DNA from: Pelagomonas calceolata
Taxonomy: Eukaryota
Direction: 5' to 3'
DNA: 64,000 nt
NCBI GenBank assembly: GCA_918797485.1
Contig: CAKKNE010000001.1
Location: forward strand, 6,076,001 to 6,140,000
This document shows, piece by piece, positions 184 to 55,245 of this stretch (position 1 is its first letter; every line of letters begins with the position of its first letter). A program made the position numbers and the translations under genes. The notes below the pieces were generated by a model. That model made no database searches. It had not been told where the DNA came from and saw only the letters and a list, made by a program, of their open reading frames with translations.

Positions 184-204
184 TGTCGTTAGTCCTAGGC
201 CCCG

Positions 205-2858: not shown

Positions 2859-3140
2859 ATGGCTGCGACCGACGCTGTCGCCGTACGAGAGGTGGAAATC
2901 TCCTTCGCCGACACAATAAGCGGCCTCCTGTGCCTCGGCGGCATCGGTTTAGACGACGCCTCGGACGGCGACGAAGAAGAGATTTTGATCGATGGGCCGC
3001 GTGGGCGCGCCGACACGGTGCGCGCGTCGAGTTTGTCAATCCCTCTCGCCAGGGGCCCCTGCGTCTACCAATCTCCCGCGTGTACCTCCCCTGTGTCCAT
3101 GACGATGGCTTCCGAGCCCTCTCACGAAACCCGGAGCTAG
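2859..3140 (+). CDS. small hypothetical protein
   Basis: ATG-initiated ORF MAATDAVAVREVEISF... with an acidic patch; no recognised domain. Confidence 0.35.
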   Translation: MAATDAVAVREVEISFADTISGLLCLGGIGLDDASDGDEEEILIDGPRGRADTVRASSLSIPLARGPCVYQSPACTSPVSMTMASEPSHETRS

Positions 3141-3157
3141 TGTGTAAAGACACTAGC
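3136..3157 (+). promoter_or_regulatory. upstream GCTAG..GACACTAGC motif (8-bp inverted-repeat variant)
   Basis: GCTAGTGT-GTAAAG-ACACTAGC, about 130 bp upstream of the ATG at 3286. Confidence 0.6.
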
Positions 3158-3285
3158 AAGCCCAGGTGCTCGAGACGCGGGCGGCCTGGGCCGCTGCAGG
3201 CGTGTGCCGCAGGCGTCTCCGCTTGCTCGTAACGAGTTTGATTAGCACACGAACGGCTGGGTGCTGGCAATCAGCCCTGCGAGAC

Positions 3286-5345: not shown

Positions 5346-5410
5346 AGGGGTGGCCGTTTTCAATTTCTAATTCTCATTTTAAGATGCTCTCCCCAGCTGC
5401 ACCGAGAAAA

Positions 5411-6145
5411 TCAAGCGTCGATTCCGAGATTAGCGCACATATGATTGTACCACATCTCGGCGGCCTCGTCGCCGGCCTCCTTGCGAACAATCTCGCGGCA
5501 CATCTGCATGTTCAGCTTCTTATTCTTGTCCGAGAACCGGTCCTGCTCCTGGAGGTGCTTGGTCTTGTCCTCAGCATAGGGAGTGCCCTCCGGGTCGAAG
5601 TCTAGCTTGAGCAGGGCCCAAACCCACGCCGTCGCCGTCGAGTAGAGGGCTTTGCCAAATGTTCCGTTGCCCGCGGAACGCATCATGCTAACGAAGAACT
5701 CCTTGTCCAAGAGCGACGCCAACGTGACTATTTCTTCGGCGAAAAGAACTTGGAGATCGACCGGCGTCTTCCCGTCGTCCTTCGGGACACCGGGTAAAGG
5801 GGGGAGGTGTTTCTCGAATAGGTTGCAAGAGGCGTTGCAAGGGTCAACGATGCTGTCGGACATACGCGAGATGGGTAGGGACTTGACGGGCAGCGCGTGG
5901 TCGATGGTTTCCACCCACTTGGTCGCGGCTTTCTCGAATTTGCATATATTGAACGACACGTCCTCCGCCGCGAGAGCTTTGCGAACTTCGACCTCGTACG
6001 CGGTGTAGGCCTCGTGGTGCTGCGCATAGGGCGACTTCACATTAACCATATAGGGCGGGAACTGGACGATGGGCATCTCCTTGAGGCTGCCACTACCGCC
6101 GCTGGCGGCGCGGGGGCGCTTCTTCGGGGGTGCGGTGGAAGCCAT
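5411..6145 (-). CDS. hypothetical protein with N-terminal NLS-like PPKKRPR
   Basis: 244-aa ORF with natural amino-acid composition; no family recognised. Confidence 0.65.
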   Translation of the reverse strand: MASTAPPKKRPRAASGGSGSLKEMPIVQFPPYMVNVKSPYAQHHEAYTAYEVEVRKALAAEDVSFNICKFEKAATKWVETIDHALPVKSLPISRMSDSIVDPCNASCNLFEKHLPPLPGVPKDDGKTPVDLQVLFAEEIVTLASLLDKEFFVSMMRSAGNGTFGKALYSTATAWVWALLKLDFDPEGTPYAEDKTKHLQEQDRFSDKNKKLNMQMCREIVRKEAGDEAAEMWYNHMCANLGIDA

Positions 6146-6530
6146 GAGTTTCAGATGAGGCTGGGCGGTGCTGCCGTCGCGCGGGGCAGCGGAGACTCGG
6201 GCAGCCGCGATGGCAACCAGGCACATGAGACAGACGCCGGCCAAGGCTAGTGGCCCCGCTCGCCGGCTCAAACCTCTCGCCCGGGCCAAGACTCGTCACC
6301 ATACCTCCTCTTGGTGTTTTTTGCGAGCGGTACGAACACCGGCTGCTCAGGTTCAGGCGATGAGAGGCTGTAAAAAACGCGTGCCTCAGCTCGACATAAC
6401 TCATCGGCACGGTCCACAAATTTGCGAGCGATCGCACTGGTGAACTGCTCGTTACATAAAAAAAATTTGAGGCGCCGCGCTGCGCCTGTCAGTAGAATCA
6501 GCTAGCCTGCAGCAGAGGTGCTACATAGCA

Positions 6531-7460
6531 ATGGCCGAGCCAGACATCGAAGAGCACGTCTCCTTGGACCTGCACCACCTGAGCGCCACGTACAAAGTGC
6601 CCGCGGAAACGGGCGAAGCGCTGACGGCGCAGGCGCGCGACGCGACGCAGCTGCTGGTCGCCGGGTTGTTTGCGCTGCCCGTCGAAAAGACGAACGAGGG
6701 CCCCGTCATCACGCTGCCCGCCGCGACGACGGCGCTGCCGCGCGAAAAGCCCGTGCCCCAGCCGCGCGCCGAGACGAAGTGGGAGAAGTTCGCCAAGGAG
6801 AAGGGCATCGCCCCCAAAAAGAAGAGGTCCCGCATGGCCTGGGACGAGGAGCGGGAGAAGTGGGCGCCGGCCTGGGGCTACGACAAGGTGGGCGGCGACG
6901 AGGCGGACGCGCCGATCATCGAGGTCTCCGAGCGCGACGCGGCCGAGGGCGTGGACCCGCGCGAGGAGGCGCGCGCCGAGAAGAAGGCGCGCGTCGCCAA
7001 GAACGCCGCGCAGCGCGACGCCAACGACGCGCGGGCCCGCAAAAAGAAAAGAGGGCCCGAGCCGGAGGGCGTGCCGTCCGGCCTGCCCGTCGACCTGCAA
7101 GGGAAAAAGAAGGGCAAGGCCGGCGTCAAGGGCGCGCTCGAGCGCGCCCAGGTCGCGACGGCGTCGCTCGGCCAGTTCGACGCCGTCGTCGCCGGCGAGG
7201 GCAAGCGGCCGTCGGGGCCCGCGCGCGGCCGCAAGCGCCAGTTCCTGAGCGTCGCGTCCGCGCGGGGCTCCGACGCGGCGCGCGCCTCGGCCATCCTCCA
7301 GGACCTCGAGCGGCCGCGCGCGAAGCGGCCCGGCAAGGGCGAGGCGGAGCGCATGGACACGCACGACGGCGAGCTGCCGAACGAGAGCGGCTTCAAGCGC
7401 AAGAAGGGGAAAGCCGCCGCGGGCAAGTCGAAGAAGATCACGAAGAAGCGTGGCATGTAA
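6531..7460 (+). CDS. RRS1: ribosome biogenesis regulatory protein RRS1
   Basis: LPREKPVP..ETKWEKFAKEKGI..KKKRSRMAWDE..WAPAWGY and ATASLGQFD motifs. Confidence 0.92.
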   Translation: MAEPDIEEHVSLDLHHLSATYKVPAETGEALTAQARDATQLLVAGLFALPVEKTNEGPVITLPAATTALPREKPVPQPRAETKWEKFAKEKGIAPKKKRSRMAWDEEREKWAPAWGYDKVGGDEADAPIIEVSERDAAEGVDPREEARAEKKARVAKNAAQRDANDARARKKKRGPEPEGVPSGLPVDLQGKKKGKAGVKGALERAQVATASLGQFDAVVAGEGKRPSGPARGRKRQFLSVASARGSDAARASAILQDLERPRAKRPGKGEAERMDTHDGELPNESGFKRKKGKAAAGKSKKITKKRGM

Positions 7461-7541
7461 GAAACTGTGACACAACATTAACCATTCACTAGTAGGGCCG
7501 GGAGCAGCACGCCATCGATGCGTCGCGTCGACAGCTTCAGA

Positions 7542-8279
7542 TCACCAGCCGTGCGCGCTGTACGGCTTGATGCTGCGGAGCCTCGAGATCCGGAGCCGCT
7601 CGGCCCGGCTGTCGACGACGGCTTCGCGGATGACCGCCATTTCTCCCTCGCCGACGCCCGCGCTCCGACGGCCGACGCCTGCCCAGACGACGCTCGAAGA
7701 CCCGCGGCCCGCCGTCAGGAGGTGTGAGACTTTCGAATTGGTGCGCCCGTCCTCGAGGTACTGCTGCTCCGGGAGCATAGCCGTAGAGTTCACGATCTTG
7801 GGTTTCCCGAACGCATCCGAGTATTCCAGCACGGCACCAAACACAAGGTCGCTCTCCTCACGTCGTCGCGTCGCGCCTTTCGAGATCGGCAAGTCCTCGT
7901 ACTCCGCCACCGGCTTGAGTCGTCGAGCGTCCTCGTGGTCGGTGAGCGGCGGCGGCAGCAGCATCTCCACGAATTCGACGGCGTTTTTCTTGCGCTCTGC
8001 TATGCACTTCCCCAGTGCATCGCCCGCGACGGCGTGGTCGGTAGCACTGCCCACGGCTCGCAGCGCCGTGCCGCGCGGACCCTCGATTATCATCGGTGAG
8101 GCGTCGCTGGGCGCTTTGGACGTCGCCTGCCGCACGAGCGCCGCGACGCTCGGGCTCTGCCACGGCTGGGCAGCCAAAGCTCGGTGGGCGGTCTCCCGGG
8201 CGCGGCGCCGGCGCCGTGGTGGATCTGCAGAGGAGGGGCGGCGGCGGGGCCGGCCGCGCGCGGTCGAGGGGCCCAGCAT
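7542..8279 (-). CDS. hypothetical protein
   Basis: Open frame MLGPSTARG...LRSIKPYSAHGW with coding-like codon use; start uncertain. Confidence 0.55.
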   Translation of the reverse strand: MLGPSTARGRPRRRPSSADPPRRRRRARETAHRALAAQPWQSPSVAALVRQATSKAPSDASPMIIEGPRGTALRAVGSATDHAVAGDALGKCIAERKKNAVEFVEMLLPPPLTDHEDARRLKPVAEYEDLPISKGATRRREESDLVFGAVLEYSDAFGKPKIVNSTAMLPEQQYLEDGRTNSKVSHLLTAGRGSSSVVWAGVGRRSAGVGEGEMAVIREAVVDSRAERLRISRLRSIKPYSAHGW

Positions 8280-8937
8280 CGATCGATGGCTCGTTCTAGG
8301 CTGCCCACTGCCTGATTTATCTCCGTGGCAGCAGCGCCTTGCAAAGCGCTCTGCCGCGCGCGCGGCTAGCGGGCTCCAAACCAGGAGTAGTCGGCGGGGA
8401 CTGATTGCTGCCGAGAGATCCGCCGGGCTCTTAGAATGGCGCGCTGCTTTCTTGCGATGGAGCCCGCGTCGGCGCGCCCCGCGGCGATGGACCGGGCCCA
8501 CACCTGTCTCCAGAGGTAGCAGGCGTACGAGGCCAGCCACCTGCCTTACTTCTGGATTTTCTTTCGAGTGCCGTTGCCATCACAATTCGCGACCTACGCT
8601 AATGTACTCGTAGTTGGTAAAGCTGCGTGTCTCAAAAGCGGCACGCAAACGCAGCCCAAAAGGTACGCGCCCACACGAGAGTGAGCGTAAAGTAGCCGAG
8701 ACGCCCTACAGAGACGCCGCGCGCAAAAAACGCGCAGCCCGGGCGCCCCGCGCACGCATTTCTACAAGCCCCAGCGAAAAGCCCCAGCTAAGGCCGGGGC
8801 GGCGCGCGGCGCCCCCGCCCGCGCAACGCCGCAGCGGCCACACCGACGCAGCTCCCGGCACATAGTCAACATTTACGGCCGCGCCCCGCAGGCACAACCA
8901 CACCGCCGGCGCCGCCGCGGATTCACCGGCATCTCCC

Positions 8938-10062
8938 ATGGACGAGACCAAGGCGGCCGACGCCGCCGCCCTCGACGCCTCGATCCTGCCCACCATGGCC
9001 GCCGCCGAGGCCACGCTCCAGGAGCTCGACGCCGTCGTCAAGCCCGAGCCCACGATAGACGCGCTCAGCATCAACACCTACGCCGGGCCGCCGCCGCGCA
9101 CGTCGGGGCGCCGCCGCAAGCCCTCGGTCCTCGTGCACCAGGTCTCCGTCGACGAGGACGACGGCGGGCTCTACGTCCAGCCCGCACCGCGGCCCGTCTA
9201 CCAGGGCGGCGTCCGCCTCAGCGCGTTACGGGTGAAACAGCTCGTCGACTCGGACCAGGCGACCCTCGACCGGGACGAGATCTGCGAGGCCATGGACGTC
9301 GACGGCAAGGTGAGCCAGACGGACTACGGGCGGTGCGGCGGCATGCTCTCCGGGCGATTGGGACCGAACAAGTTCATTGTTGATTATGCTAAGGGCCTGC
9401 GGTCGAAGTGCAAGCGCCACCGCTGCAAGCACGCCTTTAGGGACGGCGAGCTAAGGGTCGGCAAGATCCCGCCGCGCGCGCGCAAGGACGTGCCGGCGCG
9501 CCGCGTCCACTGGTACCACCCCGCCTGCATCTTCAAGTCGTTTGAGCGGGCGTCCAAGAAGACGAAGACCATCGATACTATTGAAGAGATCGAGGGTTTT
9601 GAAGAACTCCACAAGGCGGACCAGCGCGACCTCGCGAAGCGCGTCGACGAGTGGGCCGCGCGCAAGGCCGAATCCCTAGCTATGTACAAGCCCAAGAAGA
9701 AGAAGGCGCGCCGCGAGTCGCCGTCGGCCGTGGCCCTGGCGCTCGCCGTCGCGGAAGCCGCGGCCGCGCCCAAGAAGCTGAGGATGGACCCGGGCGGCTC
9801 CGAGTTCGTCACGCCGCCGTCGTCGCCGAAACCCAAGGTGCGCACGGTCACGCCCTGCGACGGGCCGTCCAGCGACGAGGACGTTTCGTTAGATGGCTCG
9901 TCCCATTGTATGTTCTTACCGGAGCCCGTCATCAGTGTCGAGGAGTCCATGGAGATGCCTCTGATGGAGATGCCGCTCGACTCCCTGGCCTACGTGGACG
10001 CGAACGACACGTTGGATTTTGGCGCGCTGCTCCCGAGCATCTTCGATGAAGTGGAGGGCTGA
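8938..10062 (+). CDS. PARP-type zinc finger protein
   Basis: DYAKGLRSKCKRHRCKHAF..GELRVG..HWYHPACIF..IEGFEELHKADQ, followed by a basic NLS and an acidic tail. Confidence 0.85.
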   Translation: MDETKAADAAALDASILPTMAAAEATLQELDAVVKPEPTIDALSINTYAGPPPRTSGRRRKPSVLVHQVSVDEDDGGLYVQPAPRPVYQGGVRLSALRVKQLVDSDQATLDRDEICEAMDVDGKVSQTDYGRCGGMLSGRLGPNKFIVDYAKGLRSKCKRHRCKHAFRDGELRVGKIPPRARKDVPARRVHWYHPACIFKSFERASKKTKTIDTIEEIEGFEELHKADQRDLAKRVDEWAARKAESLAMYKPKKKKARRESPSAVALALAVAEAAAAPKKLRMDPGGSEFVTPPSSPKPKVRTVTPCDGPSSDEDVSLDGSSHCMFLPEPVISVEESMEMPLMEMPLDSLAYVDANDTLDFGALLPSIFDEVEG

Positions 10063-10722
10063 GCGGGACTTCTTCTGATTGCGGAAGAAGTCTAACCCCG
10101 CCGCCCTGTTCTGTCGAAGCCCCTACCCCCTACCCCCTTACGGCGACCGCGCCTGCACGAGGCGCCGCCACCGCCGACGGCACCTGTCAAAAAGTCAACA
10201 ACTGTACGCCGCCGGCGACGACCCCCTGTACCCCGGTTATCTCCTGTCCACTGTCCCAAATGTAAGAAGTAGGCATGTATTTATCATCTCCTGGTGGCGC
10301 GAGGCGCGGGCCGGCGGTCGCTGTTTTTCTTCCGTGTTCCAAGTGTCCGGATGGGTCTGTTTATAGGTGCGCCGCGTCGAAGGCGTGCGCGGCGCCGTCG
10401 TCTTCGGTGGTCATGGCTCTCCAGCATCGGCGCGGCCGCCGGCCGGTGCGGCTTGTTGTTGTTTGCCTCCGGTCCCAAGTGTCCAAGTCATCAGTCCAAA
10501 GGTGCTTTGCGCCGGCAGGCGTGCGCTCGTCGTCTTCGAGATTGGCTCTCCAACAATCGAGCTGGCCGCGAGGCGCCGTCTCCGCACGCCTGTACGACGC
10601 CATTTGTGGTGATACCGAGCTATAAGTCAAGCGAGTGCTACATAAATCTGCGGGCATCAGTTCTTGACGAAGCAATCGCGGTGCCAGCGCATTTTGCAGA
10701 AACTGAGAGGCAGGGCAGTGGC

Positions 10723-10784
10723 CAGCATCAGCGCTCAAATCCAGCGCTACGGACAGCACCAGCGCTCGAATCCAGCGCTACGGA
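10723..10784 (+). repeat. 31-bp tandem duplication just 5' of a start codon
   Basis: CAGCATCAGCGCTCAAATCCAGCGCTACGGA followed by CAGCACCAGCGCTCGAATCCAGCGCTACGGA. Confidence 0.85.
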
Positions 10785-10793
10785 CGCCAGCGG

Positions 10794-12011
10794 ATGCGTG
10801 GCGTCCTCATCATGCTCGCGGTCGCGAGAACCGCGGTCCGCGCGCTGCGCGGTCCGGTGACTTGCGCGGCGCGGCCCAGGCCGAGGTTCGCCGCGGCGGT
10901 CGCCGAGGTCCAGGCCGAGGCGAACCCCTTTTCCATTGTCAGGGACGACCTGAAGCTGATGAAGCTGCGGATCAAGGCCTTGGTCGAGAACACGCTCGAC
11001 GAGCCCGGGAGGGGAGGCGGCGCGAGGAGCTCGGGCCGGTCTCATCCCTTGTTGCAGGAGGCAGCTAGAGAGTTCTTTGAGCGAAGGGAACGCGCCTTCC
11101 GACCCGCTGTGGTTCTCTTAGTAGCAAGGGCCGTCGAGTCCACCGAGAAGGGCAAGCCGGTAAGTGCAAGGCAATGTCTCCTCGCGGAGATCGTCGAGAT
11201 GATGTGCACCGCTACGATTGTTCACGATTCGGTCCTGGAGGACGACGAGGAGTCCATGCTGGGCAACGTGGCTCATAGAACTTACAGTCAAAACGCTGGG
11301 AACAAGGTATCTGTCTTGGCCGGTGATTTCTTGTTAGCTAGGTGTAGCGTAGCTCTATCACAGTTAGGAGACCTGACGGTCGTCGAGCTCATGGCTACTG
11401 CTTTAGAGTCCATCGTGCAAGGTGGCGTTTTAAAGGCGCAAGCGCGGCAGGCCGGCGTCGCGCCCAGTCTGGATGACTACGAAGGTCGGGTGCGGCTGAA
11501 GACCGCGTCACTCATCGCGGACGCGTGTCGTTCAGCAGCGATCCTCGCGGGCGAAGCCCATGATAGTGAGGTCGCGAACGCCGTCTATGACTACGCGACG
11601 GCGCTGGGTCTGTCGTACCAGGTCATGTTCGACACGATAAGGTATCATCAGATATTGGAACTAGCGCATGTGGCCGAGTCGGACGTGGCCATTTCCGAGA
11701 GGATCCTCCAGGAGTTTATTTCGTCGCCGCCCGTGATCCTGTCGGAAATCGCCGACGTCAACGCGGCGACGACGTCGCGGGCGTCTCTTAAAAAGCTGTC
11801 GGGGGACGTCGAGGCGGCTTCCGGGTTAAATCACGCGGTCGCGCTGTCGAAGGAGCACGCCGAGCGTGCGAAGAACGCGTTGGGGTTGCTGCCGGAGTCG
11901 CGCGAGAAGCAGGCGCTCCTCATGATGGCGGACTTCGTCTCGCAGGAGGACCAGGTCGGCCTGCAGCGGGAGAAGTACGTGCAGTCGCGCGCGGACGCCG
12001 CGCCGGTGTAA
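10794..12011 (+). CDS. trans-polyprenyl diphosphate synthase-like protein with degenerate Asp-rich motifs and targeting presequence
   Basis: FRPAVVLL, LAEIVEM..TATIVHDSVLED, GNKVSVLAGDFLLA, KTASLIA, ALGLSYQ. Confidence 0.85.
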   Translation: MRGVLIMLAVARTAVRALRGPVTCAARPRPRFAAAVAEVQAEANPFSIVRDDLKLMKLRIKALVENTLDEPGRGGGARSSGRSHPLLQEAAREFFERRERAFRPAVVLLVARAVESTEKGKPVSARQCLLAEIVEMMCTATIVHDSVLEDDEESMLGNVAHRTYSQNAGNKVSVLAGDFLLARCSVALSQLGDLTVVELMATALESIVQGGVLKAQARQAGVAPSLDDYEGRVRLKTASLIADACRSAAILAGEAHDSEVANAVYDYATALGLSYQVMFDTIRYHQILELAHVAESDVAISERILQEFISSPPVILSEIADVNAATTSRASLKKLSGDVEAASGLNHAVALSKEHAERAKNALGLLPESREKQALLMMADFVSQEDQVGLQREKYVQSRADAAPV

Positions 12012-12396
12012 GGTTTCGAGTGTAGTCCGTCTCGCCTGGCGCGTCGATGGCGTGCGCGTTCACGGCGACGACTTCCGAGGCCGCGCGTCGGCGGGAGGAG
12101 TCGCCTAGCGAGATAGCCCCTCTAGCAGGCGAGTGCAAGCCTGCACCAGCGCCAAACTCGGTGAGCAGTGCATATCACAAGCTTAGAGCCGCTGTGCACA
12201 GACCTTTTGATTGACACCTTCAGTCCCTGCCGCGAACACTGCAACAGATAGGCTCTCTGGCAAGTTGCAGACTGCCCACACAAAGCACCGAGTTGCATAC
12301 AGCTGCGCATCGATACGCCGAGGTGCAAACAGCAGCGCATCGATACGCCATCGCCGCGATAGCACCTCAGGGGACACCGCAAGGCTACAACAGAAA

Positions 12397-13383
12397 ATGG
12401 TCGCCACGCGCTCCGGCCGCTCGAAGACGTCGGCCGACGCGGCCGAGTCGACGTTAGTGCCCCTCGCCCTCAATTTGCTGGGTTGGTACGGCTGCAACGC
12501 CTTCTTCAACGTCCTGAACAAGGAAGCACTCAATAGGTGGCCTTACCCCTGGGCCGTCGCGTGGCTGCAACTCGTGGCCGGTGTCGCGATAGTAATACCG
12601 CTCTGGGCGTCGGGGCTGCGAGCGCCGCCAAAAGCTGACCTACAATTCGTGGCGCGGACCTTCGGGCCCATCGGCGCGCTGCACGCGGGCGGCCACGGCG
12701 CCCAGGTCGTGTCGTTCGGCGCGGGAAGCGTCTTCATGGCCCACGTCGTCAAAGCATTGGAGCCCATCGTCGGTACTGTGATAGGCTACCTCTTCCTCGG
12801 TTCAACGCCGTCGCTGATGACGAACTTGAGTTTGGTGCCCATCGTCTGCGGCGTCGTCTATGCGGCGTCGAAGCCCGGTGGCGTTGACTTCGGGGGATTG
12901 ACGTCGCTCCCGGCGCGCACGGCGTTGGTGTCCACGGTCGCCTTCGCCTTCGCCAAGGTCCTCGCGAAGCGCCAGATGTCGCCCAAGGTCAAGAAGGCGC
13001 GGAACCTGGACGGCGCCAACGTTTATGGGTTGCTGACGCTGTGCTCGTGCGTTTGTTTAGCCGTGCCGGCGTTTCTGTTGGAGGGGGCCGCGGCCTACGA
13101 CGCCTTGCAGAGTACGGATTCTATGATTGTGCTGTCGCTCGTCGCTAGAAGCGGTGCATTGTACTACCTCTCGAACGAGTTCTCGTTCCGCGTGCTCGGC
13201 ATGTTGGATCCAGTGAGCCAGGCCGTGGCGAACGCGGCGAAGCGCGTCTTCGTGCTCGCGGCGGCGGCCGTGTTCCTGGGCGAGGTGCCCTCAACGCGAA
13301 AGATCGTCGGGTCCTGCGTCGCTTTGCTGGGAGTCCTCGGCTACGGCCTCTCGAAGCGGGACGCGGCGAAGAAGAATCGTTGA
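12397..13383 (+). CDS. triose-phosphate/phosphate translocator (TPT/DMT) family transporter
   Basis: WYGCNAFFNVLNKEAL, HVVKALEP, YYLSNEFSF..LDPVSQAVANAAKRVFVL; many TM segments. Confidence 0.9.
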   Translation: MVATRSGRSKTSADAAESTLVPLALNLLGWYGCNAFFNVLNKEALNRWPYPWAVAWLQLVAGVAIVIPLWASGLRAPPKADLQFVARTFGPIGALHAGGHGAQVVSFGAGSVFMAHVVKALEPIVGTVIGYLFLGSTPSLMTNLSLVPIVCGVVYAASKPGGVDFGGLTSLPARTALVSTVAFAFAKVLAKRQMSPKVKKARNLDGANVYGLLTLCSCVCLAVPAFLLEGAAAYDALQSTDSMIVLSLVARSGALYYLSNEFSFRVLGMLDPVSQAVANAAKRVFVLAAAAVFLGEVPSTRKIVGSCVALLGVLGYGLSKRDAAKKNR

Positions 13384-13457
13384 TTTCTCCCCTTCCTTCT
13401 CTCTCGCTCTAAGTTTCGCCGAGTCTACTTCGTTTTGTCTGGGTTGGCCCGGAAAGC

Positions 13458-13520
13458 TGCGCAGTAGTCGCAGTACCTGCGCAGTGCCTGCGCAGTACTG
13501 CGCCAGTAGACTGCGCCAGA
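13458..13520 (+). repeat. degenerate 10-12 bp tandem repeat (TGCGCAGTA-like)
   Basis: About six imperfect copies in the convergent 3' gap. Confidence 0.55.
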
Positions 13521-13559
13521 CGAGGGGCCACAGGCGCGCTGCAAGATAGGAACAATCTC

Positions 13560-14015
13560 TTACGTATACAGCCGGTCGTCGCGCGCGTACTCCTCGATGC
13601 GCTCCTGGAGCGTCGCGGCTCGACAGACGCAGTACCTTCCGAGGCAAGTGCCGCCGTGCCAGGACAGGTCGACGAGGAGCGGGATCGCGCCCAAGCGCCT
13701 ATTTTTCTTCTGCACATACGAAACCAATGACGCGCGATTCGTGATCGGCCGGTCCGCGACGTTGATAAATTTGAGGATGTGCGAGTAGCAGTCGGCGGGG
13801 AGCTGGGGGTGCTGCGGCAGCGGCGGCGTCGCGTGCGACCGCCGTCGCTCCTTCCACGCGTTGACGATGGCCTCGCCGCTGATCATCGGCGGGCCCGCGT
13901 TGACGAGCTCGCAGACGCGGCCGGCGGCGGGGCCGGCGCCGGGCTCATCGTCTGCCCGCGGCGACAATAACGGCCCGGGCCCGGCGAACGCGAGCGGCTC
14001 CGGCTTGGTCCCCAT
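13560..14015 (-). CDS. hypothetical protein with F-box-like segment
   Basis: QLPADCYSHILKFINVAD resembles an F-box start; gene start uncertain. Confidence 0.5.
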   Translation of the reverse strand: MGTKPEPLAFAGPGPLLSPRADDEPGAGPAAGRVCELVNAGPPMISGEAIVNAWKERRRSHATPPLPQHPQLPADCYSHILKFINVADRPITNRASLVSYVQKKNRRLGAIPLLVDLSWHGGTCLGRYCVCRAATLQERIEEYARDDRLYT

Positions 14016-14324
14016 GCCCGCCGCGGGCGCCGGCGGGAGGGCCTGCTGGAGGTTGCCTTTGGGGCCTTGAATTTGAACAGCGCGGTGTGGTGCGCACGGC
14101 CGGCAGAATCGAGGTACCGGCTTCATGGTCCGCATCAACCGGCTGTTCTAACCAGCGTTTGTCCCAAAATATGATCGTGCACCGCGACGAACGTGCTGTT
14201 TGAGCAACAATGCTCTGCGATGCCAGTCAGCCTGGGCCGGCCCTGCAGCCGCAGGGCGCCCAGGCACCAGGACGACTCCCGGAGACGCGTTTAGAACTGC
14301 TTTGAACTCTGCTCCGCGTAATGA

Positions 14325-14347
14325 GCTAGCGGCGTGAAGTCACTAGC
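14325..14347 (+). promoter_or_regulatory. upstream GCTAGC..CACTAGC motif
   Basis: GCTAGCGGCGTGAAGTCACTAGC in a divergent gap, about 130 bp before the GPI8 ATG. Confidence 0.6.
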
Positions 14348-14479
14348 AAAAGCAAAGCAGCAAGCGCGTGCGCCAAACTGGTCGCGATTGCAAGCATTCC
14401 TACAAACTTGGGTGCCGCTGGGCTCCTATTTGCAGTGAGAACGCAACGCACACGAGAACGCCATCGCTGCGGCTCCACA

Positions 14480-15436
14480 ATGCGGCTGTCAGCAGCCCTG
14501 TGGTGCCTCGCCACCGCGACCGCGACAGGAGCGACCGCGACAGCCGCGACCGCGACAGACCAATATTATGGTGAAGACACCTGGGTCGTCGTCGTCGGCG
14601 CTTCTAGATATTTTGCAAACTACCGCCACGCCGGGAACGCGTTGGCCGTAAGGAAAGCAGCTAGGAGGTTTGGCGTGCCGCGCGATCGCATCTTGGTATT
14701 ACTCGCGGAGGATCCGACATTGGACGCGCGGAACCCGATGCGGGGCGAGGTCTACCTGCACGCCAATCAGAAATTTACGGACAATCTAGCGGTAGATGAC
14801 GACGGCAGTTATGCGGATGTGGACTACGCGAACGAAGAGGTGACGCCCGAGCTCGTACGGAACTTGTTGACAGGAAGGTACGACGCGACGACGCCAAAAT
14901 CCAAAAGATTGGACTCGAACGAGCACTCGAATCTATTTGTGTACTTCACGGGTCATGGGGGAGACGAGTTCCTCAAGTTCCACGACGCCGACGAATTGAG
15001 TGCGAAGGAGCTCGCGTTGACGTTCGCCGAGATGCGGGCCAAACGGCGATTTAAAAGATGCATCCTCGTCGTGGACACGTGCCAGGCCGGCAGTCTCTTT
15101 AAATACCTGGACAATTCGACGTCTGGCATACTCGCGATGGCCTCGGCGAAGCTCGGCGAGAACGCCTATGCCTCGCCGGCGGATGCGACGACGGGCGTCG
15201 CGCTCGCGGATCGCTTCACCGAGCAAGCGATCCGGTGGCTCTCTTCCACAGGATCGGAGCCGGGGGCGACGTGGGGCCACTTCGTGCACCAGATGACGCG
15301 CGCGCGGACGGGGTCGACGCTGGAGGTCTACGAGAAGGCCTGGGGCTCGGGGTTGGACTGGCGGTCGGCGCCGATCCGCGCCTTCCTTGGGGACCCGCCG
15401 GGCGAGGAGCACTCGCTGACGTTCGCGGAATTGTAG
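14480..15436 (+). CDS. GPI8: GPI-anchor transamidase catalytic subunit (peptidase C13)
   Basis: Signal peptide, SRYFANYRH, VDYANEEVT, YFTGHGGDEFLKFHD, VDTCQA. Confidence 0.93.
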   Translation: MRLSAALWCLATATATGATATAATATDQYYGEDTWVVVVGASRYFANYRHAGNALAVRKAARRFGVPRDRILVLLAEDPTLDARNPMRGEVYLHANQKFTDNLAVDDDGSYADVDYANEEVTPELVRNLLTGRYDATTPKSKRLDSNEHSNLFVYFTGHGGDEFLKFHDADELSAKELALTFAEMRAKRRFKRCILVVDTCQAGSLFKYLDNSTSGILAMASAKLGENAYASPADATTGVALADRFTEQAIRWLSSTGSEPGATWGHFVHQMTRARTGSTLEVYEKAWGSGLDWRSAPIRAFLGDPPGEEHSLTFAEL

Positions 15437-15495
15437 TTTTGTTGTTTTAAAAGAAAGTCTTAAATTTGGGGGGGGGGACGAGGTTCGAGATCGCT

Positions 15496-17234
15496 CTACT
15501 CTTCGAGGTCCTGGTCCTCGAGCGGAGCTTGACTTTTGCGAAAGAGGGACGAGAAGAGGCCTTGGCGTGGGGCCGGCGCCGGCGGAGGGAAAGATGTCGG
15601 GGTTGCACCTGCGATGGGGTTCGCGGGTCGACGGCGTTCTCCAGAGGGCTCAGCCCGGAATCGAACCGAAGCCAGGATGTCCCTAACATCCCGTGCTACC
15701 ATTACACCACCAAGCCCAGTAGAGTGAAAGACGCCGGCGCCCGACTTGTAGGTTGAGGTGCAGAAGGCCTCCTGGCTGACATCCCACGCATCATAGCAGC
15801 CTTGGACGACTTCTTTGACGTGTTGCGGTAGACGTTGCGCGCACGGCCCACGCTGCCCATAAGACGCGGCATGGTTTCTTCTTCGTCCGAGTCCGAGTCT
15901 TCCATGCACCGCTGCATTTGATGCCCCATCATCTTGCTTGTCATCCACTGGCGGCCGCGCGCCCGATACGCATCCTCGTTGGCGAGGCCCTCGAGGACGA
16001 CGGCCAGGTCGTGCGCGAGCCGCTCGACGAGACTCCCCGTCACGGCCGCGACCTTGAGGGCCGCGATCTTCGCCTTCTGCGACTCGAGCACGCGTCTCGC
16101 GCCCGCGATATCTCTTCGGTCCGCGCATTCCCGCGCCGAGAGTAATGCGTCGGCCGTGTCGAGGCGCGCGCGCTGCTCCGTGACGTGGTTGTCGGGCACC
16201 GCCGTCTGGGCTTTCGCCGCGTCGACGGCGACCGACGCCGTCGCCGTCGCGTGCGAGACCCGGCCGTTGGCGGCGTCGACGTAGCGCAGGGCGAACGAGA
16301 CTTCGACGCTAGCGCTGCCCAATAGCTCGACCTCGACGAGAACGTCGCGCTGCTCTTCCTCGAAGACGTCGCCCAAGGGTACCGTCCACGTCCGGTCGTC
16401 TACGCGCGTCGCGCCCTCGCGGCGGACCCGCGCGATTCTTCCCGCCGAGGCCTTGACTTCGACGACGACGTTTTGCGCCGCGACGGAGAGCAAGCCACCC
16501 AAACAATCAGCGAAGGCCCCCACGACCTTCTCGGCCGTCTCGATGAAGTAGTACGAGCCCTTGCCGTCGCCCGCGGCGCCGGCGATCGACTGCAATAGGG
16601 ACGCGTTGTGGTCGGAACCGTAGCCAAACGTGTAGAGACCCGTCGAAGTTCCGTCCAGCAGGCTCTTCGTCGCCGCAATGAGCGGTTGCTCCTCCGTGAT
16701 GCCGGCGTTGGCCAGGCCGTCCGTGAGGAGCAGGACGGCTCGGATGCGCTCGGCCGCCGGCGCTGCGGACAACAGCCCCAGACCGGCGAACAGGCCGCCC
16801 GAGAGATTCGTGGTCCCGCCCGGCCGCAGGCTTTTTACGGCCCTCGCAACGTCCGACGACGCGCTGACCAGGGCCGTGTTCGTCTTGACGCGGTGGTCGA
16901 AGGACACGAGGCCGAAGCGGTCCGACGGGCGGAGTTGTTCTATCAGGAGCTCGGTCGTCTCCTTGCAGAGTTCCAATTTGCGTTCGGCCTCCATCGACCC
17001 GCTGCGGTCCATGACGACGACGACGTCGACGTCCGGGCGGCGTTTGCCCTCGGACGCGGCGGCCGTGATGTTGCAGGCCATCGTCGCGCGCGCGCAGGCG
17101 GGGGCGACGTGGCTCAGCTCGGCGGCTGCTGTGAGTGTGAGGGTGTCCTTGGTGTTGCTGGTACCATTTGCGTCAGGAACCATTTCAAAGTCTTCGTCGG
17201 AGCTGGCGTAGGGGCGCGGTGTGCGGTCGTCCAT
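15496..17234 (-). CDS. von Willebrand factor A domain protein; predicted intron 15609-15745 hosts a tRNA
   Basis: MIDAS DRSGSM, GGTTNLSGGL, LLTDGLANAG, TFGYGSDHN. Splicing A|GTCGGG...CATCGCAG|GT adds an in-frame last exon ending DQDLEE*. The unspliced ORF would stop at 15702, inside the tRNA. Confidence 0.85.
15646..15716 (-). tRNA. tRNA-Pro(AGG)
   Basis: 71-nt cloverleaf. Acceptor GGCTTGG/CTGAGCC with C73; D arm GTGT-AATGGTA-GCAC; anticodon arm GGATG-TTAGGGA-CATCC; T arm TTCGG-TTCGATT-CCGGG. Confidence 0.9.
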
Positions 17235-17837
17235 TGTGTTTTTGCTGTGTTTTTGTTGTCCGTGCTGGCTTTTGGTGCGCGCGGTTGCTGTGAATAGCTC
17301 GTGGCTTCGAATGTGCTGCCTTGCGCGTGAAATTGTGTTCGTTGGCAATCCGCGGGCTGCCTTGCGATGTGTTGCTTTGCTTTGTGCTTCAGAGAGTGTT
17401 CCGCACGGTCAGGAATTGTCGCCGTCAGTTCGGCGTCGCCAGAGTGATCGTGATGTCTAGCACGTCCTAGCAGGGGGTATTGGCTCGGTGATACGGCGTG
17501 TTTGGACTTTTACCTGCGGTAACCGCGCGCGAGCGGCGAGGCTGAGCATAAGCACAGCAGCAGGAACGAAACCCCCTCAAGTGCACAAGACGAATCGTGT
17601 TCGTCGAGCGGCGGGGCTGAGCGACAATCCGTACGGGTAACCTTCCCTAGAGCCCATCATCTAGCTCGACATTATTATGCCAGCATCGAAAGCCATTCAG
17701 TACGGCTGCTGCAGCGGCATCGATAGTGATCAGCAGCGGTGCCGATTATACTTGCAACGAACTCAGTTATCCAGTTGAGCGAACTCTGCTTGACGCGCAC
17801 TGCTAGCAAAAAAAAAGCACAAGACACAGCAGCAACC

Positions 17838-19100
17838 ATGCAGCACGCCGCAGTGGCTCAAAACCTGGCAGAGGAAGTCGCAAAGGTCGCCGACCAACTC
17901 AAAGACTTCGAGCTGCGCGCCATCTCCGCTGCCGGGCGCGGCCTTACCGCTCGTGCCGATGCTGCTTTGGAATCGAGGCGCGAGTGGCCGCCGGCGCGGG
18001 TCCAGCCGGAGCTCATCCTGCAGTTTCTGACGTCGCCAGACGTCGCGTCCGGGCTGCGGGTCTGCGTCCGCTGGAGCGAGTCAGCTGAGGCCGCCTGCCG
18101 TTTAGTTGCTCTGCGATCCCGGGCGCAAGAGCTCGCGGCGGCCATAGATCCAGACTACATGCAGCGGCACCCCGCCCTCACTTGGGAGATGCGCAAGAGT
18201 CTGGTAGACTGGATTGCGGCGGTCCATCACAGTCGCAGATTTTCTCCTGAGGTGCTGTTTCTCGCAGTGCGCATTATCGATGAATACCTTGCTGTCGCAG
18301 AACCTGTTTTGCAGCCTAATTTGCAGCTCGTGGGTGTGGCGGCGCTCGCCCTCGCGTGCTTCCGCGAGAGTGATTCCCATATTGTGCTCCACGCGCTGCA
18401 CCTCCACGAAATCGCACTTAGCGCCGACAACGCCTACGACGGACCCACCATCCTTGCAATGGAAAAGACGATATCCCAAGCACTCGCGGACGGAAATGCA
18501 ACGTATGCATCTTCTTCGGTTCGTACCGTCATGATGTCGTACCTCAAGGCGGAGAGCTCCGACGACGACTGTTACATGGTGTGGATCGCCTCGTGCGTCG
18601 CCGAGCGGATGCTCCTGGAGCACAAGATGCTCAAATACTTGCCGTCGATGGTCGCTGCATGTGCGGTCTACGTCGCGCGCGGCAGCCTCGACAAGACTGC
18701 CTGGACGAAAACTCTCGAGCGCTGCTCGCAGTACTCCGCGGACGACCTGCGAGCTTGCCTCGAGGACGTGAAACATTTCATGGTTGTACACAGGCGTTCG
18801 ACAGAAACTGTCAATGAATTAATTGTATACGTTAAGTACAGGAACAGGCGGCTTGGCGCGCCTGCGATGATTCCGCTCAGGATCGGCGAATGGTCATATA
18901 ACCGCCAATTGGACCTCGAAGTTCCACCCGATTACGACAAATCGCCCTTGCTTTACCCGGTTTCGGCGAATAGGGCGGAACTGGAGATGTATTCGCGTCT
19001 ACCAGTGCCCCGCATGCGGCCTCGGCCCGGACGACGCGGGGTGACCCCGACGGCACCGAGGGAACCCCAGGAGGACTCCGGCTCGTGTGTCACTATGTAG
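17838..19100 (+). CDS. divergent cyclin (A/B-like cyclin box) with N-terminal F-box-like segment
   Basis: MRKSLVDWI, EVLFLAVRIIDEYL, LQLVGVAAL, DNAYD..ILAMEKTI, MLKYLPSMVAACAVY. Confidence 0.85.
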   Translation: MQHAAVAQNLAEEVAKVADQLKDFELRAISAAGRGLTARADAALESRREWPPARVQPELILQFLTSPDVASGLRVCVRWSESAEAACRLVALRSRAQELAAAIDPDYMQRHPALTWEMRKSLVDWIAAVHHSRRFSPEVLFLAVRIIDEYLAVAEPVLQPNLQLVGVAALALACFRESDSHIVLHALHLHEIALSADNAYDGPTILAMEKTISQALADGNATYASSSVRTVMMSYLKAESSDDDCYMVWIASCVAERMLLEHKMLKYLPSMVAACAVYVARGSLDKTAWTKTLERCSQYSADDLRACLEDVKHFMVVHRRSTETVNELIVYVKYRNRRLGAPAMIPLRIGEWSYNRQLDLEVPPDYDKSPLLYPVSANRAELEMYSRLPVPRMRPRPGRRGVTPTAPREPQEDSGSCVTM

Positions 19101-19149
19101 TGTAAGAAAGCAATAACAATGAGGACCACCCAAAGGTTACACACAAAGT

Positions 19150-20284
19150 CTAGTCGTCCTCGTCGTCCATGGCGTCCTTCCGCCGCGCGACGTACGCCCT
19201 CGCCAAGTCCTTGACCGCGGCGGCCGACGCCGCGTCGCCGTGCTCGCTCTCGAAGGCGGCAAACCGTTTTAAAGCAGCGTTCATCATTTTCGGAGGGAGG
19301 TCCGCGGCGGCCAGCCGCGTTTGTATATGACGCGCGTGTTGCACGTCGCCGGCTTTCAAGGTCTTCGCCACATATAACTGCCACAGGTCCGCTCTCCTAG
19401 GAAAGCGCTCCAGCAACTTGTCGAAGACCGTCCTTCCTCGATCCCGGCTCCCGTCCTCTAATTCCAAACAGGCGTATCTAGATAAGAGCGAAGCCTCCTC
19501 CTTCGGAGCACCGTCGCAGGCCTGGACGCCTCTCTTCACAACGGCATCCGCACCCTTGGCGTCGCCCGCCAATAACCGAGACCGGGCGTGGCGCAGCCAG
19601 ACCTCTTCTGTAGTTTTGGCTTGATGTTTGGCTCGTTTCTCACATTTACGATACACCGCATCGCTTCGCTTGAAATCTTGCGCCGCATCCAACAAAGCGC
19701 CCAACCTTAACAGTACTTTGGTAGGGTCACAATTCGCCACGGCTCGCTTCGTCGTCGCATCTAATGACGTGGAGTCGCCGTGCTTCCGTTCTAGTTCCAA
19801 CAAACAGGCCCAGACATCCAAGCGAGCATCTTCGCGCCGGTAGTGGATCGTCTTCAGGCCTCTCTCTAAAACTTTCCGCGCGCCGGGCGCGTCGTCCTCG
19901 CGCTCCAGTAGGAAAGTAGCATACGTCGTATAAGCCGCGGCCTCGTCCTGATGAGCGACCAAATGACGTTCGTAATCATCGCTGGAACGCATCTCGTCGT
20001 TGAGCAGCGCCTCCTCCGAGGCCATCGTTTGTAGTTCGGCCGCGCCCTCGTCCGCGGGCTCCGTTTTACGTCTTTTCGTCTGCTTGGGCCGCTCCTCGTC
20101 CCAGCGTAAAGCTTGGGCCTCTTCATCGTCGTCGTCGTCGCTCTCGTCGTCGCTGTCTTCGTCCTCCTCCTCGTCTTCGGACGAGTCGGCGGCCTCGTCC
20201 TCTTCTACTGCATCGTCGTCGCTCTCGTCGTCGGAGTCGTTCGCTAATAACGCGTCGGCTCTAGCTAAAGCCTCGTCATCATCA

Positions 20285-55220: not shown

Positions 55221-55245
55221 GCTAGTGTCTTACAAGGCCGCTAGC
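55221..55245 (-). promoter_or_regulatory. upstream motif
   Basis: Minus strand reads GCTAGCGGCCTTGTAAGACACTAGC, in the divergent gap. Confidence 0.72.

What the first reader, a model, noticed from the sequence alone, without database searches (positions are those of the whole stretch)
15609..15745. tRNA-Pro(AGG) nested on the sense strand of a short predicted intron, with no nearby Pol III terminator
Seen: a complete 71-nt cloverleaf (15716-15646) lies inside a 137-nt GT-AG interval, with only 29 nt and 37 nt of flank. Removing the interval gives the VWA gene a plausible in-frame final exon. Unspliced, the ORF would run into the tRNA and stop in its D-loop. The first T4 run on this strand is about 200 nt downstream, beyond the host stop codon. 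Established: nuclear tRNAs are normally Pol III units ending at T4 or longer. Inference: this tRNA is either processed from the spliced Pol II intron, like an intronic snoRNA, or transcribed by Pol III through the host's last exon.
Basis: partly seen in the sequence, partly recalled or inferred. Interest (0 to 1): 0.8.

Follow-up and report, generated by a model that had tools for sequence, protein, structure and literature searches.

The report
Proline tRNA gene inside spliced intron
An intact proline tRNA gene sits, pointing the same way as its host, inside a 137-base intron that RNA reads show is spliced out of a VWA-domain gene of a likely pelagophyte alga. tRNA genes inside introns are a known arrangement, and whether this one is likely made from its own polymerase III promoter or would be cut out of the host's intron is untested.

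Summary
A 71-nt tRNA-Pro(AGG) (15716-15646, minus strand) scores 46.2 bits against Rfam tRNA, and ARAGORN agrees. It lies in a GT-AG interval, 15745-15609. Stranded poly(A) RNA-seq of the same organism shows the exact predicted junction, with 359, 192, 227 and 91 reads in four runs. About 12-15% of coverage keeps the intron. The mRNA runs from about 17375 to 15472. The first T4 on this strand (15452-15449) is 194 nt past the tRNA and lies beyond the poly(A) site.

Five environmental relatives, about 89% identical in exon 1, carry the tRNA in the same intron. All 147 stem cells pair, four pairs show compensatory changes, and the anticodon is AGG in three relatives and TGG in two. One relative's contig is the spliced form. 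The tRNA is therefore under selection as a tRNA and the nesting is conserved.

The route of synthesis is not settled. Poly(A) data cannot show Pol III products. Three relatives have a T4 55-69 nt downstream in the last exon, and distant or degenerate Pol III terminators are known. I favour ordinary Pol III transcription (about 0.5) over maturation from the spliced intron (about 0.25). This is a new member of a known kind, the intronic tRNA genes, and a clean test case for intron-derived tRNA. This scan has already noted a similar case in Perkinsus.

The parts
15646..15716 (-). tRNA-Pro, anticodon AGG (A34 at 15684). 71 nt, 7/4/5/5-bp cloverleaf, 4-nt variable loop, C at the discriminator position.
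   Evidence: Rfam RF00005 46.2 bits. ARAGORN. All 147 stem cells pair across 7 orthologous copies, with 4 covarying pairs.
15609..15745 (-). Spliceosomal GT-AG intron, 137 nt. It is the only intron interrupting the coding sequence and is the terminal intron.
   Evidence: Joint skipping 137 nt in 359/192/227/91 reads of 4 RNA-seq runs. Relative L001 is the exact spliced form.
15717..15745 (-). 5' intron flank, 29 nt: the 5' splice site, one strand of the predicted flank helix, and a variable leader just before the tRNA.
   Evidence: Sequence. Alignment and consensus fold. 11 of 29 columns vary among 6 lineages, mostly in the leader.
15609..15645 (-). 3' intron flank, 37 nt: the other strand of the predicted flank helix, the probable branch region and the 3' splice site. 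It contains no T4.
   Evidence: 7 of 37 columns vary and mean pairwise identity is 0.906, against 0.773 at third codon positions. Fold.
15746..17237 (-). Exon 1 coding part of the host gene (VWA domain plus Vwaint), 1492 nt from the ATG.
   Evidence: Pfam VWA E 1.4e-17 and Vwaint E 1.9e-6. Relatives at 93-97% identity.
15499..15608 (-). Exon 2 coding part, 110 nt. The spliced protein is 534 aa. The stop TAG lies at 15498-15496.
   Evidence: Translation. The same tail is present in P0005, P0006, P0013 and P0014.
15702..15704 (-). TAA that ends the frame of the intron-retaining mRNA (511-aa product).
   Evidence: ORF list and translation. P0002 and P0003 are this form in relatives.
15590..15594 (-). 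TCTTT in exon 2, 52-56 nt after the tRNA. The same site is T4 in relatives L004, L006 and L007. It is a candidate weak Pol III terminator (inferred).
   Evidence: The terminator role is inference from Orioli 2011.
15449..15452 (-). First T4 on the tRNA strand, 194 nt after the tRNA.
15457..15472 (-). mRNA 3' ends: main at 15472, minor at 15457/15458.
   Evidence: Pile-ups of read starts in 4 runs (table 6).
17369..17375 (-). mRNA 5' ends of the host gene.
   Evidence: Pile-ups of read ends in 3 runs (table 6).

Best explanation
A structurally intact tRNA-Pro(AGG) gene lies in sense orientation inside the 137-nt last intron of a VWA-domain gene; that intron is removed from most poly(A) RNA, and the tRNA is likely transcribed on its own by RNA polymerase III from its internal A/B-box promoter, with termination predicted at a degenerate T tract in the last exon or further downstream.

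Shown:
- The tRNA fold and the splice junction.
- About 12-15% intron retention in poly(A) RNA.
- Conservation of the nesting in five related lineages, with compensatory stem changes.
- No T4 in the intron.

Inferred:
- Pol III as the main source of the tRNA.
- Termination at TCTTT (15594-15590), or read-through to the T4 at 15452-15449.
- The two intron flanks pair with each other, which would hold the splice sites together around the folded tRNA so that the host mRNA can still be spliced.

The excised intron would also be a substrate for RNase P and RNase Z, so a minor second supply from the host transcript is likely but untested.
For: 1. The tRNA is real and under selection as a tRNA.
- Rfam gives 46.2 bits for the window. 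The orthologues score 51.6 and 50.9 (L002, L006), 42.2 (L007) and 40.5 (L005).
- In the alignment of 7 copies, 52 of 71 columns are invariant.
- All 147 of 147 stem cells pair. Four pairs changed on both sides (3 in the anticodon stem, 1 in the T stem), giving 13 such cells. Slid controls pair only 25-52% of cells.

2. The D-arm and T-arm columns, which also serve as the internal promoter, are almost invariant. The T-loop stretch fits the box B consensus as I recall it.

3. A missing nearby T4 does not exclude Pol III.
- Many human tRNA genes have no T4 within 50 bp and use degenerate terminators or read through (PMC3141230, abstract).
- Yeast Pol III often reads through to far-downstream terminators (PMC4937561, abstract and introduction).
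- Three of 5 relatives with at least 131 nt of downstream sequence have a T4 at offsets 55, 64 and 69, at the site where the window has TCTTT.

4. Intronic tRNA genes studied elsewhere are Pol III units. In C. elegans 44-47% of tRNA genes are intronic and 56% of those are in sense (PMC4999229, passages read).

5. In poly(A) RNA that keeps the intron, depth is flat across the tRNA (82-90 in X21). No starts or ends pile up inside the intron. No change at A34 (15684) reached the listing threshold in 4 runs. There is therefore no sign that the host transcript is handled as a tRNA precursor. This is weak evidence, because cleaved molecules would leave the poly(A) pool.
Against: No T4 occurs in the intron in any of the 6 genomic-type sequences, that is the window and L002, L004-L007. 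In the window the first T4 is 194 nt away and 20 nt past the main poly(A) site.

The 3' flank is more conserved than the tRNA (0.906 against 0.858 mean pairwise identity). Both are more conserved than third codon positions (0.773) and the 3' UTR (0.716).

The conserved flank parts are complementary to each other. Their distal strands (24-26 and 16-20 nt before the tRNA) would lie upstream of a typical Pol III start, about 11 nt before the tRNA (start position from PMC4937561 introduction). The helix can therefore form only in the Pol II transcript.

The host is the most heavily covered gene in 20 kb, so Pol II traffic through the tRNA gene is high. In C. elegans, sense intronic tRNAs have lower Pol III occupancy.

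No Pol III occupancy, small-RNA or total-RNA data were available. The Pol III step is not shown.
Confidence: 0.5

Rival explanations
1. The tRNA is made mainly from the host's Pol II transcript. The spliced-out intron, after debranching, would be cut by RNase P and RNase Z to release the tRNA, as intronic snoRNAs, mirtrons and the insect RNase P RNA are made from introns. Pol III would contribute little.
For: The tRNA is in sense orientation, in an intron that holds little besides the tRNA and splice signals, and this is conserved in 6 of 6 genomic-type sequences. No T4 occurs in the intron in any of them, and there is none for 194 nt in the window. The complementary flanks are conserved and can pair only in the Pol II transcript. 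The host is the best-covered gene in 20 kb, so it would give a steady supply of intron RNA. There is a precedent for a Pol III RNA moving into a Pol II intron: the RNase P RNA of insects and crustaceans (PMC6797745, abstract). Sagi et al. call intron-derived tRNA theoretically possible and unstudied (PMC4999229, discussion passage).
Against: Any intact tRNA gene carries the TFIIIC binding sites, so Pol III is the default. Absence of a T4 is also the chance expectation here (P about 0.9). Three of 5 relatives have a T4 55-69 nt downstream. Intron-retaining poly(A) RNA shows no cleavage at the tRNA ends and no change at position 34. From my own knowledge, Pol II output per gene is usually far below that of a Pol III tRNA gene.
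Confidence: 0.25
2. Both routes supply tRNA in comparable amounts. Pol III would transcribe the gene when the host is quiet, and the spliced intron would add tRNA when the host is active.
For: The evidence listed for each single route also applies here. RNase P and Z act on tRNA folds in Pol II transcripts in other systems, for example MALAT1/mascRNA (from my own knowledge). In C. elegans the host promoter influences intronic tRNA expression.
Against: No data here measure either route.
Confidence: 0.15
3. The cloverleaf is kept mainly as an RNA structure that serves the host gene, by controlling splicing or intron retention of the last intron, and is not a tRNA used in translation.
For: 12-15% of poly(A) coverage keeps the intron, which changes the protein's C-terminus from a 534-aa to a 511-aa product. 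Intronic tRNA look-alikes that affect splicing are reported in human (PMC7722341, abstract seen in a search listing).
Against: The anticodon loop keeps U33, a proline anticodon (AGG or TGG) and G37 in all six complete genomic copies (the transcript-like L003 has a 1-nt gap at position 34). The D- and T-loops are near invariant. This is the conservation pattern of a decoding tRNA. The read-through tail is not conserved: the D-loop stop is absent in L003 and L005.
Confidence: 0.07
4. The tRNA is a decaying relic: a tRNA pseudogene, a SINE head or an introner-type insertion.
For: The related alga P. calceolata has many transposon-derived introns (PMC9481584, passage).
Against: There is no other copy of either flank in the 64-kb window at up to 3 mismatches, and no repeat family touches the interval. 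The intron is 137 nt, not about 210. The cloverleaf pairs perfectly, with compensatory changes, across 7 copies.
Confidence: 0.03

Closest known systems
Intronic tRNA genes of Caenorhabditis elegans, e.g. sup-7 in intron 3 of C03B1.2 (Sagi et al. 2016, PMC4999229)
   Same: [quoted passage not shown] The pairing of host gene and tRNA is conserved among related species.
   Different: Here the intron is only 137 nt, with flanks of 29 and 37 nt. It is the last intron, 134 nt from the poly(A) site. It has no T4 in any of six lineages. The lineage is intron-poor if the alga is Pelagomonas-like (0.45 introns per gene in P. calceolata, PMC9481584). Pol III occupancy is known for the worm genes and unknown here.
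Intron-embedded RNase P RNA of insects and crustaceans (Palsule et al. 2019, PMC6797745)
   Same: An RNA that is ancestrally a Pol III product lies in sense orientation in an intron of a Pol II gene and lacks its own terminator.
   Different: For RNase P RNA the switch to intron processing is shown by experiment, and the ends are trimmed by Rat1/Xrn2 and the exosome. Here nothing shows dependence on splicing, the ends would be made by RNase P and RNase Z, and the internal promoter cannot be lost without losing the tRNA.
Human tRNA genes with distant or degenerate terminators (Orioli et al. 2011, PMC3141230) and yeast read-through pre-tRNAs (Turowski et al. 2016, PMC4937561)
   Same: No T4 close to the tRNA 3' end. 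A degenerate T tract (TCTTT) lies about 52-56 nt downstream and a canonical T4 lies far downstream.
   Different: Here the trailer would cross a 3' splice site, a coding exon and a poly(A) site of a host gene on the same strand.
Intronic snoRNAs, mirtrons, and mascRNA from MALAT1
   Same: A small structured RNA on the sense strand of a Pol II transcript. RNase P and Z could release it, as they release mascRNA.
   Different: The sequence fits the tRNA model (46.2 bits). It does not fit mascRNA (RF01684 17.5 bits against a gathering score of 42.5). It carries a proper anticodon loop.
Isoacceptor anticodon shifts in orthologous tRNA genes (Rogers and Griffiths-Jones 2014, PMC3923123)
   Same: The orthologous intronic tRNA reads AGG in the window, L004, L005 and L007, and TGG in L002 and L006.
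   Different: The shift is seen here within one intron of one host gene among lineages only about 10% apart. It occurs on two different T-arm backgrounds.
This scan's note e1-7243420: tRNA-Gly(CCC) in a 138-nt intron of a Perkinsus gene
   Same: An intact sense tRNA fills about half of a short spliced intron.
   Different: It is in another supergroup and is another tRNA. I did not check that note. It judged the case ordinary.

Membership tests
tRNA (Rfam RF00005), eukaryotic cytosolic tRNA-Pro | Scores above the family's gathering score over the full model | tested here: met
   46.2 bits against 29, model positions 1-71. Orthologues score 51.6, 50.9, 42.2 and 40.5. L004 and L003 were not listed by any Rfam run. 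ARAGORN finds both.
tRNA (Rfam RF00005), eukaryotic cytosolic tRNA-Pro | Cloverleaf kept by compensatory change in relatives | tested here: met
   147 of 147 cells pair. 4 pairs and 13 cells changed on both sides. 0 of 500 shuffles reach the covariation score. Slid controls pair 25-52% of cells. The alignment holds only 7 related sequences.
tRNA (Rfam RF00005), eukaryotic cytosolic tRNA-Pro | Proline anticodon with U33 and G37. A34 is the nuclear type that is edited to inosine (feature recalled). | tested here: met
   The loop reads TTAGGGA. Anticodon agg by ARAGORN. Editing itself was not tested.
tRNA (Rfam RF00005), eukaryotic cytosolic tRNA-Pro | A mature, CCA-tailed, aminoacylated tRNA exists | not testable with these tools
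   Only poly(A)-selected RNA-seq was available.
Spliceosomal GT-AG intron | Exact exon-exon junction in RNA of the same organism | tested here: met
   359/192/227/91 junction reads in 4 of 4 runs. The skipped ends are CT..AC on the plus strand.
Pol III-transcribed intronic tRNA gene (C. elegans type) | Pol III, TFIIIC or TFIIIB occupancy, or primary transcripts that start just upstream of the tRNA | not testable with these tools
   No ChIP, total-RNA or 5'-end data. No read pile-ups inside the intron in poly(A) data.
Pol III-transcribed intronic tRNA gene (C. elegans type) | T4 or longer terminator shortly after the tRNA | tested here: not met
   The first T4 in the window is at offset 194. 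None occurs in the intron in 6 of 6 sequences. A T4 lies at offsets 55-69 in 3 of 5 relatives.
Intron-processed small RNA (intronic snoRNA, mirtron, insect RNase P RNA type) | Sense orientation in a spliced intron, without its own terminator | tested here: met
Intron-processed small RNA (intronic snoRNA, mirtron, insect RNase P RNA type) | Production depends on host transcription and splicing | not testable with these tools
   This needs inhibitor, reporter or nascent-RNA experiments.
tRNA-derived SINE or introner element | Dispersed repeated copies that include the flanks | tested here: not met
   Each flank occurs once in 64 kb at up to 3 mismatches. No repeat family overlaps the interval. 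Only this window was searched; no genome is held.
mascRNA/menRNA (RF01684) | Reaches the gathering score | tested here: not met
   17.5 bits against 42.5. 19.3 bits in L005.

The most novel reading that the evidence does not exclude
A nuclear tRNA whose normal source is a spliced Pol II intron. The proline tRNA would be released by RNase P and RNase Z from the excised 137-nt intron of a well-expressed host gene, presented on a conserved helix formed by the intron's two flanks, with no Pol III terminator kept in any of six lineages. It would be the first natural intron-derived tRNA.
Probability: 0.22. Interest if true: 0.8.

Novelty: new member of a known kind. Interest (0 to 1): 0.42.

Why it matters
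tRNA genes are the textbook example of self-contained Pol III units. Whether a tRNA can be made from a spliced Pol II intron has been raised but not studied (Sagi et al. 2016, discussion passage).

This locus is about as clean a test case as sequence can offer:
- The intron is 137 nt, and 71 nt of it are the tRNA.
- The orientation is sense and splicing is proven.
- No terminator lies in the intron.
- The nesting and the flanks are conserved across a species complex of an apparently abundant ocean alga.
- The organism evidently exists in culture, since RNA-seq labelled with it is public.

If the tRNA proves to be an ordinary Pol III product, the locus still shows three things. Pol III would have to run across a splice site, a coding exon and a poly(A) site of an active gene on the same strand. 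A folded tRNA can be tolerated in a minimal intron. An orthologous tRNA can switch between AGG and TGG anticodons over short evolutionary distances.

Tried and rejected
Genome-wide census of sense-intronic tRNAs and their terminators: not possible, because no genome is held for this window.

Earlier scan notes by place and by sequence: nothing.

Rfam at gathering threshold:
- The run on the whole window listed nothing.
- The run on six loci listed only 2 of 6 tRNAs.
- Narrower runs recovered the window, L007 and L005, so these are filter misses.
- L004 stayed unlisted in a 301-nt search and its score is unknown.

Comparator for intron retention:
- A GC3 frame map meant to locate other introns was strand-symmetric and useless.
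- The second read lay, over 1-20000, showed 15 of 96 joints. The only clean GT-AG joint among them was the tRNA intron.
- I therefore cannot say whether 12-15% retention is unusual.

SINE or introner idea: rejected. The flanks are unique in the window.

mascRNA-like reading: rejected. The score is 17.5 bits against a gathering score of 42.5.

Other copies of this tRNA in a typical Pol III setting: an exact 23-nt pattern found nothing in viral contigs.

L003 has a 1-nt gap at tRNA position 34 and a divergent 3' end. I considered a reverse-transcription signature of base modification, or a second tRNA. The contig ends 24 nt after the tRNA, so this is left unexplained.

(not completed) was repeated successfully. 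One script ended with an index error after printing its main tables. I counted paired and unpaired variable columns by eye instead.
Full report
**What is there**

ARAGORN finds a single tRNA in the 64-kb window, tRNA-Pro with anticodon AGG, at 15644-15717 on the minus strand. The Rfam tRNA model matches 15716-15646 from end to end at 46.2 bits, against a gathering score of 29 (E 9.6e-9). A first Rfam run over the whole window at the gathering threshold listed nothing. This was a speed-filter miss. The same thing happened with relatives, which scored 40-52 bits once the stretch searched was short.

The tRNA has a 7/4/5/5-bp cloverleaf with several G-U pairs, a TTAGGGA anticodon loop, a 4-nt variable loop and C at the discriminator position.

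**The host gene**

The minus-strand frame 17408..15702 encodes a protein with a VWA domain (Pfam E 1.4e-17) and a Vwaint region (E 1.9e-6). The first ATG is at 17237. Read without splicing, the frame ends at TAA 15704-15702, at the border of the D stem and D loop, and gives 511 aa. The interval 15745-15609 begins with GT and ends with AG. Removing it joins the frame to 36 further codons ending at TAG 15498-15496, which gives 534 aa.

**Is the intron real?**

Yes. A search of public runs found four raw-read, poly(A)-selected, paired RNA-seq runs labelled with the same coded organism. I laid them on 15350-15950. In run X21, 1525 of 1729 laid reads are at least 99% identical to the window. The junction that skips exactly 137 nt is seen in 359, 192, 227 and 91 reads (X21-X24). 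The skipped ends are CT..AC on the plus strand, which is GT..AG on the gene's strand. Minor joints shifted by one to three bases have at most 11 reads each.

Nearly all of these reads have the first mate on the plus strand. In the usual stranded protocol this means the RNA is from the minus strand.

Depth is about 650-700 in the flanking exon bins of X21 and 82-90 across the intron. The intron-to-exon ratio is about 0.13, 0.13, 0.12 and 0.15 in the four runs. So roughly one-eighth of poly(A) coverage keeps the intron. Depth is flat across the tRNA, and no starts or ends pile up inside the intron.

Read starts pile up at 15472 (main) and at 15457/15458, which are the mRNA 3' ends. A wider lay puts the 5' ends at 17369-17375. 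It also shows that this gene has the highest depth in the first 20 kb of the window.

**Terminators**

On the tRNA's strand there are T3 runs 54, 103, 182 and 190 nt after the tRNA. The first T4 is at 15452-15449, 194 nt after it. That is past the stop codon and 20 nt past the main poly(A) site.

Its weight is limited, however. With 15% T on this strand, having no T4 in 193 nt is the chance expectation (P about 0.9). What the sequence shows is that no terminator is being maintained near the tRNA.

**Relatives**

A protein search returned 136 hits. I read 13 of the 120 listed, 11 of them at 92-97% identity.
- Five carry the spliced tail or junction: P0005, P0006, P0009, P0013, P0014.
- Four read into or through the tRNA: P0002, P0003, P0004, P0007.
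- Two are uninformative: P0008, P0012.

The nearest named organisms are pelagophytes at about 50% identity: Chrysophaeum taylorii, Pelagophyceae sp. CCMP2097 and Aureococcus. The window's GC content (mostly 0.59-0.68) fits the 63% reported for Pelagomonas calceolata (PMC9481584, passages). I infer a Pelagomonas-like pelagophyte; this is not shown.

One scan of metagenome contigs gave 11 loci, of which seven reach the end of exon 1.
- L001 is the exact spliced form.
- L002 and L004-L007 carry a 135-143-nt GT-AG intron with the tRNA in the same place.
- L003 stops 24 nt after the tRNA.

The six genomic-type sequences are about equally distant from each other, at 87.5-91.2% identity in exon 1.

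**Is the tRNA under selection?**

In the alignment of seven copies, 52 of 71 columns are invariant. Thirteen of the 19 variable columns are in stems (my count). On the cloverleaf, all 147 cells form standard pairs. Four pairs changed on both sides, three of them in the anticodon stem, giving 13 such cells. None of 500 shuffles reaches the observed covariation score, and sliding the partners drops pairing to 25-52%. One series (L004, L007, L002) shows G-C, G-U and A-U at the same pair. With only seven related sequences this is modest statistically, but it is the pattern of a working tRNA.

The anticodon is AGG in the window, L004, L005 and L007, and TGG in L002 and L006. The two TGG copies have different T arms. 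This implies either two switches or recombination with other proline tRNA genes. Isoacceptor shifts of this kind are documented in other eukaryotes (PMC3923123, abstract).

**The flanks**

Mean pairwise identity by region:

| Region | Mean pairwise identity |
|---|---|
| Third codon positions of exon 1 | 0.773 |
| 3' UTR | 0.716 |
| tRNA | 0.858 |
| 5' intron flank | 0.837 |
| 3' intron flank | 0.906 |

The variable part of the 5' flank is the leader just before the tRNA.

The conserved parts of the two flanks are complementary. Both the consensus fold and the single-sequence fold stack three short helices onto the acceptor stem, so the whole intron forms a rod tipped by the tRNA (z-score -2.39). 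These flank pairs hardly vary, so there is no covariation evidence for them. One pair switches between G-U and G-C. Six cells across five flank pairs are broken or gapped in L004 and L005 (one in the distal helices, five in the leader/trailer helix).

If a Pol III start lay about 11 nt before the tRNA, as in yeast (PMC4937561, introduction), the distal helix strands would be present only in the Pol II transcript. I take this as a hint that the flanks serve splicing, or processing, of the host transcript. This is inference.

**How the tRNA is made**

This is the open point, and my data cannot settle it, because poly(A) libraries do not capture Pol III products or mature tRNA.

For Pol III:
- Every intact tRNA gene carries its own promoter.
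- Intronic tRNA genes studied elsewhere are Pol III units. In C. elegans 44-47% of tRNA genes are intronic and 56% of those are in sense (PMC4999229).
- A missing nearby T4 is common in human tRNA genes, which use degenerate T tracts or read through (PMC3141230, abstract). Yeast Pol III also often reads through to distant terminators (PMC4937561, abstract).
- The window has TCTTT at 15594-15590. At the same site L004, L006 and L007 have T4, at offsets 55, 64 and 69. L005 has none before offset 189, and L002 has none in the 131 nt available.
- Intron-retaining poly(A) RNA shows no cleavage at the tRNA ends. No change at A34 reached the listing threshold.

For the intron route:
- The orientation is sense and the intron is minimal.
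- No T4 occurs in the intron in 6 of 6 sequences.
- The flank helix is conserved.
- Host expression is strong.
- There is a precedent in insect RNase P RNA, a former Pol III gene now processed from a Pol II intron (PMC6797745, abstract).

I put Pol III as the main source at about 0.5, the intron as the main source at about 0.25, and both at about 0.15. The remainder goes to a splicing-only structure or a relic.

**Comparison and novelty**

The locus meets the tests for a tRNA and for a spliceosomal intron. It is not a mascRNA-type element (17.5 bits against 42.5). It is not a repeated element within this window.

tRNA genes nested in introns are a known kind. This scan has already noted a tRNA-Gly in a 138-nt Perkinsus intron and judged it ordinary (note e1-7243420, which I did not check).

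I found no paper describing nuclear intronic tRNA genes in pelagophytes. The searches returned only organelle or survey papers. The main text of the P. calceolata genome paper contains no occurrence of 'tRNA'; I did not read its supplements.

I therefore rate this as a new member of a known kind. The added points of interest are the conserved terminator-less mini-intron, the paired flanks and the AGG/TGG switch. It is a good experimental test case rather than a demonstrated new mechanism.

Noticed in passing
L002:2137-2207, L006:1994-2064 versus window 15646-15716: The orthologous intronic tRNA has anticodon TGG in two relatives and AGG in four sequences (the window, L004, L005, L007). The two TGG copies have different T arms. 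This suggests repeated isoacceptor switching or gene conversion among lineages only about 10% apart.
   Followed up: partly
L003:1660-1753: This transcript-like contig matches L005 up to the tRNA. It lacks one base at tRNA position 34, and its sequence departs from all other copies 13 nt after the tRNA. The new letters resemble the start of another tRNA's D arm. It could be an assembly artefact, a reverse-transcription signature or a second tRNA. The contig ends too soon to tell.
   Followed up: partly
window 549-575, 859-879, 1643, 1790-1827, 2066, 4455-4475: Short segments of about 20-40 nt attract hundreds to thousands of RNA reads on both strands. The reads have loose ends that continue into other sequences, and there are odd joints (opposite strands, going back). 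This looks like a dispersed repeat family expressed from many loci, possibly introner-type elements. Rfam finds nothing in 400-2300 at E up to 0.01.
   Followed up: partly
window 15573-15611: Low-level differences (about 1-8% per alternative letter), sometimes to all three other letters, cluster in the GC-rich start of exon 2 in all four RNA runs. They are probably sequencing or alignment errors next to the junction and in GGC-rich sequence. I did not test this.
   Followed up: no
window 14330-15472: The convergent neighbour, a peptidase C13 family gene on the plus strand whose ORF ends at 15436, has RNA coverage fading between about 15390 and 15455. The 3' ends of the two mRNAs therefore lie within a few tens of bases of each other or overlap slightly.
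   Followed up: no
window whole; L002-L007: The Rfam tRNA model at default or gathering filters missed four or five of seven clearly scoring tRNAs of this type (40-46 bits when the searched stretch is short). tRNA counts from such scans in this GC-rich lineage would be too low.
   Followed up: yes
window 50001-54000: GC content rises to 0.76 over a 1698-aa open frame (50133-55229, minus strand) that holds many internal direct repeats of about 147-168 nt spacing.
   Followed up: no
window 63796-63957: Three tandem copies of a 54-nt unit, at 93% and 72% identity to the first copy.
   Followed up: no
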